Shown here: one piece after another, positions 103 to 1,208 of the stretch | Numbering within the stretch: the first letter of the stretch is position 1 | Layout: each line of letters opens with the position of its first letter | Source: Chiloscyllium plagiosum | Lineage: Eukaryota | Length of the DNA stretch: 64,000 bases | Assembly (NCBI RefSeq): GCF_004010195.1 | Contig: NC_057718.1 | Coordinates: 60,860,073-60,924,072 of the forward strand | Direction: 5' to 3' | Made by a program: the position numbers and the translations under genes | Notes under the pieces: generated by a model | What the model was told of the DNA's origin: nothing | Seen by the model: the letters and a program-made list of their open reading frames with translations, nothing else | The model's database searches: none

Positions 103-312
103 GAGCAGAGAGTGTTCAGCAGGAGAAGATAAAAGGTAGGGAGGAGGGAGTTGGAGGAGGGGCGTTGGAAATGTGATAGGTGGAAAGAGCTCCATCCTAC
201 TCCGACCTATCACCCTCACCTTGACCTCTTTCCACCTATCACATTTCCAACGCCCCTCCTCCAAGTCTCTCTTCCCTACCTTTTATTTTCTCCTGCTGAA
301 CACTCTCTGCTC

Positions 313-348
313 ATTCCTGAAGAAGGGCCTGTGCCCGAAACGTCGAAT
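313..348 (+). ncRNA. Minimal type I hammerhead ribozyme, predicted cleavage after C344
   Basis: Stem I ATTC/GAAT, core CTGAAGA, extra A, stem II GGGC-CTGT-GCCC, GAAA, palindromic ACGT in place of helix III, GUC site. Confidence 0.88.
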
Positions 349-598
349 CTCCTGTTCCCTGGATGCTGCCTGACCTGCTGTGCTTTTCCAGCAATAAAGT
401 TTCAACTTTGATCTCCAGCATCTGCAGACCTCACTTTCTTGCAGTCTTCTGCAGTCTTCTTCTTGACCTCTCCGCCTCCGTCCTACTCCGACCTATCACC
501 CTCACCTTGACCTCTTTCCACCTATCACATTTCCAACGCCCCTCCTCCAAGTCCCTCCTCCCTACCTTTTATCTTCTCCTGCTGAACACTCTCTGCTC

Positions 599-634
599 AT
601 TCCTGAAGAAGGGCCTGTGCCCGAAACGTCGAAT
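599..634 (+). ncRNA. Minimal type I hammerhead ribozyme, predicted cleavage after C630
   Basis: Identical to 313-348. Confidence 0.88.
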
Positions 635-884
635 CTCCTGTTCCCTGGATGCTGCCTGACCTGCTGTGCTTTTCCAGCAATAAAGTTTCAACTTTGATCT
701 CCAGCATCTGCAGACCTCACTTTCTTGCAGTCTTCTGCAGTCTTCTTCTTGACCTCTCCGCCTCCGTCCTACTCCGACCTATCACCCTCACCTTGACCTC
801 TTTCCACCTATCACATTTCCAACTCCCCTCCTCCAAGTCCCTCCTCCCTACCTTTTATCTTCTCCTGCTGAACACTCTCTGCTC

Positions 885-920
885 ATTCCTGAAGAAGGGC
901 CTGTGCCCGAAACGTCGAAT
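885..920 (+). ncRNA. Minimal type I hammerhead ribozyme, predicted cleavage after C916
   Basis: Identical to 313-348. Confidence 0.88.
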
Positions 921-1208
921 CTCCTGTTCCCTGGATGCTGCCTGACCTGCTGTGCTGTTCCAGCAATAAAGTTTCAACTTTGATCTCCAGCATCTACAGA
1001 CCTCACTTTCTCCTTAAACAAAGAGGCAAGCAGCCTGCCTCCTCCTCTGAGGCAACATGGGACCGCTCTGAGGACTGGGTGCCATGTCACCTCAATCACT
1101 AATGGTTTACCTTGGTATATGTCTCATGTTGTTAGTAAGTACATTTTCATGTCATACTTTAAACAATGCATGCCTTGGTCTATAATTGCTGTGTGGTGCA
1201 TGCAATTA

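What the first reader, a model, noticed from the sequence alone, without database searches (positions are those of the whole stretch)
190..1013. Retrozyme-like tandem array: 286-nt units each bounded by a perfect hammerhead ribozyme
Seen: three identical motifs ATTC-CTGAAGA-A-GGGC/CTGT/GCCC-GAAA-CG-TC-GAAT with predicted cuts after 344, 630 and 916, exactly 286 nt apart. The units differ at a few sites elsewhere but not in the ribozyme, stem I is fully paired, and no credible protein is encoded. Established: PLE terminal repeats carry minimal type I HHRs whose palindromic helix III lets two motifs act as a dimer. Non-LTR retrozymes in some animals are tandem units of a few hundred nt, one HHR each, that yield circular RNAs. 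An extra nucleotide between A9 and G10.1 is tolerated in natural HHRs. Inference: a read-through transcript would self-process through HHR dimers into 286-nt monomers able to circularise, and the array could be the footprint of rolling-circle reverse transcription by a PLE RT. I do not know of this being characterised in sharks.
Basis: partly seen in the sequence, partly recalled or inferred. Interest (0 to 1): 0.82.

Follow-up and report, generated by a model that had tools for sequence, protein, structure and literature searches.

The report
Tripled ribozyme end of Penelope retrotransposon
The three 286-base repeats are copies of the hammerhead-bearing end of a very common Penelope-type jumping gene, likely inserted from a linear two-unit RNA and then likely lengthened by one unit (or by an assembly slip), so this is a known kind of element and probably not the trace of a self-copying RNA circle.

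Summary
The array is real in the assembly: 190-1013, period 286, three minimal hammerheads. The unit is the terminal repeat of a Neptune-like Penelope element; this exact ribozyme occurs 11,914 times in the genome, so its perfection is unremarkable. The unit's junction marks an ORF-less subfamily at 58 loci. The other 57 carry one junction only, mostly with target-site duplications and Penelope's two-site tail. In 0 of 26 informative loci does a second junction stand where a circle copy would put it. Diagnostic bases show that both ends here match the linear two-unit form, not a circle. The middle unit has no private base and cannot be verified. The predicted circle is poorly paired, and one RNA run showed no ends at the cut site (weak test). 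A 2026 preprint already reports such Penelope-derived tandem 'retrozymes' in one cartilaginous fish. The scan earlier noted Penelope hammerhead-end insertions in other pieces of this genome. One lead remains: 21 of 30 copies begin at the ribozyme's first bases, suggesting uncut templates that start there. Verdict: new member of a known kind.

The parts
3..189 (-). Inverted, 5'-truncated partial copy of the unit (unit positions 37-223), typical of PLE insertions; its outer end lies 2 bases from the N run
   Evidence: blastn 98.9% to units 2 and 3; N run
67..102 (-). Fourth minimal hammerhead, identical to the others, in the inverted arm
   Evidence: motif scan, C3 at 98
187..192 (.). Six-base palindrome at the head-to-head junction of inverted arm and unit 1
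   Evidence: sequence; such palindromes are described for PLEs in PMC3846280 (passages)
190..439 (+). Unit 1: PLE 3' untranslated region, hammerhead and tail; variants at 268, 272 and 287 in a combination seen only here
   Evidence: 100% match only at this locus among 40 scored candidates
313..348 (+). Minimal type I hammerhead 1; predicted cut after 344; its first base is where most genomic copies begin
440..475 (+). Junction block, first copy: tail end joined to a 10-base duplication (440-449) and the 3' untranslated region; the whole ORF is missing here
   Evidence: exact junction 59 times at 58 loci; normal ORF-linked context at sister loci
476..725 (+). Unit 2 (middle): no private base; downstream-type base at 480 and internal-tail base at 671; the unverified extra unit
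599..634 (+). Minimal hammerhead 2; predicted cut after 630
726..761 (+). Junction block, second copy; the only locus of 58 with two exact copies of this junction
762..1013 (+). Unit 3 (terminal): terminal-tail base at 957, private base at 996, ends at the long tail site
885..920 (+). Minimal hammerhead 3; predicted cut after 916
917..1013 (+). Sequence after the cut site; family 3' ends cluster at about 978-980 and at 1013, the two inferred starts of reverse transcription, about 34 bases apart (the PLE tail)
   Evidence: 3' ends at unit 216-220 in 20 and at 252 in 27 of 57 loci; 10 and 17 of 30; PMC11167929

Best explanation
This is one insertion of a non-autonomous, ORF-less derivative of a Neptune-like Penelope element, likely copied from a linear, uncut RNA that held two terminal repeats, with a third unit likely added at this locus by a slip between homologous units. 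Steps: (1) shown: the unit is the PLE 3' untranslated region, hammerhead and tail, and sister copies adjoin RT and GIY-YIG coding sequence; (2) shown in the assembly: one junction that skips the whole ORF is shared by 58 loci, 57 of them with a single copy; (3) inferred from tails, target-site duplications and Frangieh 2024: PLE protein primes reverse transcription inside the RNA, 62-97 bases past the cut site, and copies back through both intact ribozymes; (4) inferred: a second priming made the inverted arm; (5) inferred: a template switch during copying, or early DNA slippage, repeated the internal 286 bases. The locus is most likely inert; a transcript across it would form a long hairpin between the inverted arm and one unit.
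For: Pfam RVT_1 (E 5e-8) and GIY-YIG (E 1.4e-4, 22.5 bits, just under the 22.6 cut-off) in sister loci L067 and L069; a C-x4-C-xx-C linker before the nuclease. 32 of 57 sister loci have a 12-16-base target-site duplication. 0 of 26 loci resolved one unit upstream have a second junction. In the 15 sister loci of this haplotype the terminal tail has G at unit position 196 (14 of 14 covered) and the first unit has A at position 5 (8 of 8 covered), whereas the internal tail has T and the second unit G; the window reads A/T, G/T, G/G, which is that dimer plus one internal repeat. Unique 5' truncations 33-103 bases from the junction (L055, L048, L023, L030) show the junction is a real mobilised template. 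Direct tandems with many other junctions are common: 19 of 25 copies with a longer tail are followed by a second copy, at spacings of about 197-320 bases. The 3' insertion boundary with its private base is present in contigs of two runs from two studies (one may be the assembly's own source).
Against: The middle unit has no private base, so its reality is unproven. The three unit-1 variants are absent from unit 2, so a DNA-level duplication would have to predate them. Position 63 is polymorphic among sister loci (T in 7, G in 7, C in 1 of 15), so the switch point cannot be placed and may include the cut site. No target-site duplication could be found for this insertion (its 5' flank lies in the N run). 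The junction was not among the listed joints in any of four runs (10 rows not shown, contigs drop rare variants). The clade is assigned by motif, not by a tree.
Confidence: 0.5

Rival explanations
1. The locus holds two units (possibly one), and the assembler walked the 286-base repeat loop an extra time.
For: The array abuts a 2,826-N run; 28 of 57 sister loci have an N run within 300 bases of the junction, many ending at the same base. Singleton variants run at 26 in 3,627 cells within 90 bases of the 3' flank but 4 in 7,380 in the five bins around the junction (the two bins overlapping the search pattern left out), so repeat interiors look smoothed. Private bases lie only near the unique inversion junction and the unique flank. 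Craig 2021 notes that PLE structures often break short-read assemblies (passage).
Against: Zero private bases in 286 is not rare at about 0.7% (expected about 2; probability near 0.15, my estimate). Multimers with mixed junctions, which a simple loop cannot make, exist in the same assembly (L111, L113, L072). Units 2 and 3 differ at position 63.
Confidence: 0.28
2. The extra unit is a footprint of ribozyme activity: reverse transcription began on a linear RNA, ran off a 5' end made by hammerhead cleavage and jumped to the cut 3' end of a second RNA or onto a 286-nt circle.
For: The repeated segment is exactly the RNA that two cuts would release, and the diagnostic bases allow a switch anywhere between unit positions 6 and 195 if position 63 is discounted. 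Across 174 family copies variation sits at N7, loop 2 and one stem I base, not in the core, which points to selection on the ribozyme in source lineages. L028 has a junction within about 5 bases of the predicted cut. Cervera 2014 proposed circles as templates for more-than-unit PLE copies.
Against: No sister copy's 5' end falls at the cut site, and none of 30 family copies starts cleanly there while 21 start about 30 bases upstream. In 6 of 8 fully resolved sister dimers of this haplotype position 63 reads G then T, which would put the switch between positions 6 and 62, away from the cut. The double-hammerhead fold lies about 14 kcal/mol above the ensemble (no positive control). For the anole PLE, uncut RNA was the main substrate and no reads ended at the cut.
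Confidence: 0.15
3. One reading: the whole array is a rolling-circle copy of a 286-nt circular retrozyme RNA.
For: Three units with intact hammerheads meet the operational retrozyme definition of Li 2026; the unit size is in the reported range; the same junction occurs at 58 loci.
Against: A circle cut from the dimer carries T at position 196 and G at position 5 in every unit; the terminal unit and the inverted arm have G196 and unit 1 has A5. 0 of 26 informative sister loci are multimeric. The predicted circle is 39% paired, z = -1.0 against 100 shuffles, and 70% C+U, unlike the highly self-paired retrozyme circles. Only 1 of 9 such Xenopus dimers cleaved in vitro.
Confidence: 0.05

Closest known systems
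Penelope-like element pseudo-LTRs with minimal hammerheads (Cervera and De la Pena 2014, PMC4209133; Neptune clade per Craig 2021, PMC8557442)
   Same: Minimal type I hammerhead with an extra base after A9 and a palindromic helix III; partial tandems; inverted 5'-truncated copy; optional 30-40-base tail; target-site duplications at sister loci.
   Different: The ORF between the two repeats is entirely missing, and that short form was itself copied to dozens of loci; this locus shows a third unit.
PLE-derived non-LTR retrozymes of vertebrates (Li, Clavereau and Pollet 2026, bioRxiv 10.64898/2026.07.22.740005)
   Same: Tandem units of a few hundred bases, one type I hammerhead each, derived from a PLE terminal repeat; reported in one chondrichthyan (mean consensus 363 bp); most families have seven units or fewer.
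   Different: The species and family list is in supplements I could not see, so this family may or may not be in it. Here base-level phasing argues for linear-RNA copying rather than rolling circle.
Expressed non-LTR retrozymes of coral, mussel and axolotl (Cervera and De la Pena 2020, PMC7229834)
   Same: Unit length, one hammerhead per unit, dimer-type ribozyme as in amphibians.
   Different: Those carry canonical hammerheads, reach long arrays (up to 62-mers in coral) and give abundant, highly self-paired circles; none of that is shown here.
Anole Poseidon element PAc (Frangieh 2024, PMC11167929)
   Same: Two internal reverse-transcription starts downstream of the hammerhead define the tail (85-92 bases past the cut in PAc by my subtraction; 62-64 and 97 here).
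   Different: Different clade; PAc was tested in vitro, this element was not.

Membership tests
PLE terminal repeat (pLTR) | Minimal type I hammerhead: core, extra base after A9, G10.1-C11.1, palindromic 15.2-16.2 | tested here: met
   sequence 313-348; core conserved across 174 copies; criteria from PMC4209133
PLE terminal repeat (pLTR) | Linked to an ORF with RT and C-terminal GIY-YIG nuclease | tested here: met
   met at sister loci, not at this locus: (GIY-YIG 0.1 bit under the Pfam cut-off)
PLE terminal repeat (pLTR) | Optional 30-40-base tail giving two 3' ends | tested here: met
   47 of 57 and 27 of 30 ends fall in two clusters about 34 bases apart
PLE terminal repeat (pLTR) | Inverted 5'-truncated copy at the 5' end | tested here: met
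   window 3-189; 17 of 57 sister loci
PLE terminal repeat (pLTR) | Target-site duplication around this insertion | tested here: inconclusive
   none found upstream, flank lies in the N run; 32 of 57 sister loci have 12-16 bases
Neptune clade | CX2-5CxxC linker before the nuclease, and RT phylogeny | tested here: inconclusive
   linker present in L069 and L073; shared with Nematis; no tree built
Non-LTR retrozyme, operational (Li 2026) | Two or more tandem units each with a complete type I hammerhead folding below -5 kcal/mol | tested here: met
   local fold -7.7 kcal/mol
Non-LTR retrozyme, biological (Cervera 2020) | Canonical hammerhead with usual helix sizes and loop-loop contacts | tested here: not met
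   minimal motif, 4-bp stem I, no helix III stem within a unit; no Rfam hammerhead match
Non-LTR retrozyme, biological (Cervera 2020) | Self-cleavage to unit-length RNA | not testable with these tools
   only folding estimates
Non-LTR retrozyme, biological (Cervera 2020) | Abundant linear and circular monomer RNA | tested here: inconclusive
   poly(A) single-cell run X22, 2% read: 380 reads on the family, both strands, no pile of ends, none on this locus's flank; such a library would miss circles
Non-LTR retrozyme, biological (Cervera 2020) | Stable, highly self-paired circle | tested here: not met
   39% paired, z = -1.0
Non-LTR retrozyme, biological (Cervera 2020) | Spread as multimers of the unit alone | tested here: not met
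   0 of 26 informative sister loci; 1 of 58 loci has two exact junctions

The most novel reading that the evidence does not exclude
The middle unit records a reverse transcriptase jumping at ribozyme-cut ends, or rounding a 286-nt circle once, so an ORF-less PLE dimer was caught in the act of becoming a retrozyme. With transcripts starting at the ribozyme's first base, every unit could drive its own self-processing RNA, giving the first genomic trace that minimal PLE hammerheads cut in vivo.
Probability: 0.15. Interest if true: 0.6.

Novelty: new member of a known kind. Interest (0 to 1): 0.27.

Why it matters
As found, it is one more PLE-derived tandem hammerhead repeat, a class already reported in vertebrates including a cartilaginous fish. 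Its value is as a young, phaseable test case. The 58 near-identical loci let one ask whether such tandems spread through circles or through linear RNA, and here the answer leans to linear, uncut RNA. If the extra unit proved real and tied to the cut site, it would bear on the open question of whether minimal PLE hammerheads ever cleave in vivo and how retrozymes arise from PLEs.

Tried and rejected
Rfam scan of 1-5000: only sub-threshold microRNA-like hairpin hits caused by the inverted arm; rejected, and no hammerhead family matched. Protein-coding reading of the array: longest frame 112 aa, not pursued. Target-site duplication for this insertion: none in the 10 kb upstream. Sequencing-run search: no RNA holder listed; no evidence either way. 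Laying four runs on 726-1300: the junction was not among listed joints and no contig spans the array, so copy number is untested; summed contig depths were not used as copy numbers. A full-length autonomous copy was sought through two extended-tail patterns; none of the 37 loci viewed showed one within 1.5 kb, so the ORF evidence comes from truncated copies. A genome-wide count of directly spaced hammerhead pairs was not obtained. A second 286-spaced junction in L072 was found at no other locus among 40 scored candidates. Conservation of the ribozyme between the three units as a sign of function: rejected, since 11,914 copies are identical. Literature: 'shark + Penelope + ribozyme' gave 2 papers, neither on shark elements by listing or passages; 'Penelope-like + shark + Neptune' gave 0; 'Chondrichthyes + retrozyme' gave 3; 'shark genome + Penelope + transposable elements' gave 3, listing only. 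Scan look-up by sequence found no look-alike.

Full report
Observation. The array is as described: 190-1011, period 286, 2.9 copies, 98% matches, with identical minimal hammerheads whose C3 lies at 317, 603 and 889 and predicted cuts after 344, 630 and 916. Units differ at 4 and 3 sites, none in the ribozyme. Two things were missed: an inverted partial copy at 3-189 with a fourth hammerhead and a six-base palindrome at its junction, and a run of 2,826 N directly before base 1. Below, unit positions count from 476 as position 1.

What the unit is. The exact 35-base ribozyme motif occurs 11,914 times in G000 and a tail motif 18,894 times, against 0 for reversed controls. Sister copies adjoin reverse transcriptase (Pfam RVT_1, E 5e-8) and GIY-YIG sequence (E 1.4e-4, 0.1 bit under the cut-off) with a C-x4-C-xx-C linker. 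Craig 2021 gives that linker for Neptune and Nematis (PMC8557442, passages), and Li 2026 reports Neptune and Poseidon as the groups found in vertebrates, so I call it Neptune-like; no tree was built. Copies end at two sites about 34 bases apart: 20 and 27 of 57 junction loci, 10 and 17 of the first 30 tail hits on contig C1. This is the PLE tail, which Frangieh 2024 traced to two internal starts of reverse transcription (PMC11167929, parts 1-2 of 4). Partial tandems, inverted 5' copies and junction palindromes are textbook PLE features (passages). Across 174 hammerhead copies in fetched loci (a sample biased to the young subfamily) changes concentrate at N7 (17%), loop 2 (41%, 37%) and one stem I base (37%), with the core changed in under 10%, mostly at CpG sites and at truncated 5' ends. 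That suggests selection on the ribozyme in source lineages, not on this copy.

The 286-base period. It comes from one junction that joins the tail end to the 3' untranslated region with a 10-base duplication, skipping the ORF. The exact junction occurs 59 times at 58 loci; only this locus has it twice. I fetched all 57 others. 32 of 57 have a 12-16-base target-site duplication; 7 gave 9-11 bases, 2 lie in repeats, 16 gave none. 28 have an N run within 300 bases upstream; of the other 29, 17 carry PLE ORF sequence just upstream. In all 26 loci resolved one unit upstream, the normal untranslated region stands where a circle copy would show a second junction. Unique truncation points 33-103 bases from the junction (L055, L048, L023, L030) indicate that the junction is real and was copied repeatedly. 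It is not special: a 224-base junction has 40 hits, twice at one locus, L111 and L113 are multimers with mixed junctions, and 19 of 25 copies with a longer tail are followed by a second direct copy about 197-320 bases on (two loci counted twice).

Linear or circular template. In 15 sister loci the internal tail has T at position 196 and the downstream unit G at position 5, while the terminal tail has G196 (14 of 14 covered) and the first unit A5 (8 of 8 covered). A circle cut from such a dimer would give G5 and T196 in every unit. The window reads A5/T196, G5/T196, G5/G196, with G196 in the inverted arm. So both ends come from the linear form, with one internal repeat added. Position 63 (G, G, T here) would place the switch between positions 6 and 62, but it is polymorphic among sister loci (7 T, 7 G, 1 C), so a switch at the cut site is not excluded. 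No junction-locus copy begins at the cut site, and 21 of 30 family copies begin at positions 122-134, the 5' edge of the ribozyme, none cleanly at 156. The first ribozyme base sits in a context matching the initiator consensus YYANWYY (consensus recalled). I infer an uncut RNA that starts there; this agrees with the anole result that unprocessed RNA is the main substrate.

Is the third unit real. Unit 1's variant combination is unique among 40 scored candidates, and contigs of runs X1 and X2, from two studies, hold the 3' boundary with the private base at 996 (one may be the assembly's source). The middle unit has no private base. Singleton variants are 0.72% within 90 bases of the 3' flank but 0.05% around the junction, and many loci resume after N runs at identical bases, so repeat interiors in this assembly look smoothed. 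No record spanned the array and the junction was not among listed joints. I put about 0.28 on assembly inflation.

RNA and folding. Run X22 (poly(A) single-cell RNA, about 2% read) laid 380 reads on the family on both strands, none on this locus's flank, with no pile of starts or ends; X16 (RNA by guess) also had nothing on the flank. These libraries are poor tests for circles or cut ends. The predicted circle folds at -39.0 kcal/mol against -34.5 +/- 4.3 for 100 shuffles (z -1.0, 39% paired). The double-hammerhead fold lies 14.4-14.5 kcal/mol above the ensemble, and in a 1-1013 transcript the inverted arm pairs with a whole unit, ribozyme included (secondary-structure model only, no positive control). 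Minimal PLE hammerheads showed low activity even as dimers and trimers (PMC4209133, parts 1-2 of 4), 1 of 9 Xenopus dimers cleaved, and the anole ribozyme needed protein.

Known context. Li, Clavereau and Pollet 2026 (bioRxiv 10.64898/2026.07.22.740005; parts 1-3 of 5 read; supplements not seen) find tandem type I hammerhead units in 20 of 31 vertebrate genomes, one chondrichthyan included, and derive them from PLE terminal repeats. This array meets their definition. It fails or leaves open the biological criteria of Cervera 2020 (PMC7229834; part 2 of 6 and passages). Searches for a shark-specific account found none, within a library that lacks most subscription papers. Two earlier scan notes describe PLE hammerhead-end insertions in other pieces of this genome; they are unchecked notes and not support.

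Verdict. A PLE terminal-repeat multimer of a known kind, most likely copied from a linear two-unit RNA and lengthened locally (0.5) or by the assembler (0.28); a ribozyme-dependent jump is possible (0.15); a pure rolling-circle copy is unlikely (0.05). Interest 0.27.

Noticed in passing
L139-L168 (first 30 tail hits on G000:C1); window 313, 599, 885: 21 of 30 copies begin at unit positions 122-134, the first bases of the hammerhead, not at the cut site; the boundary base lies in an initiator-like context. This suggests the element's RNA starts at the ribozyme, so most of the 12,000-19,000 copies are just ribozyme plus tail.
   Followed up: partly
L111:2035-3523 (G000:C8:24157534-24159022) and L113:2943-3801: Multimers of the same terminal repeat with a longer tail and mixed periods (224, 194, 194, 224 in L111); the 224-base junction has 40 hits. 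Better candidates for repeated template jumping than the 286 array.
   Followed up: partly
L072 (G000:C34:43176531-43177500): Second three-hammerhead array with 286 spacing, but its second junction differs and is unique among scored candidates; the same period from a different join is unexplained.
   Followed up: partly
L028 (G000:C3, about 190 bases past the junction): A short internal repeat whose join falls within about 5 bases of the predicted hammerhead cut; a single case.
   Followed up: no
L025, L033, L042, L060, L070: Five loci begin the first unit at position 121; the four whose upstream sequence I saw share the same non-PLE sequence there, either a chimeric source element or one assembly path pasted several times.
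   Followed up: no
window 33265-33362, 43619-43834, 51311-51452, 6959-7000: Older, 77-90% identical copies of the same hammerhead-plus-tail end; the one at 43.7 kb is an inverted pair.
   Followed up: no
window 23823-25316: Minisatellite of 25-27-base units, about 57 copies, 87% matches.
   Followed up: no
window 49813-51008 (-), 35513-36498 (+), 26193-26534 (-): Decayed LINE reverse-transcriptase frames, a degraded Penelope-like frame and a SINE-like repeat, judged by eye from translations; no host exon recognised.
   Followed up: no
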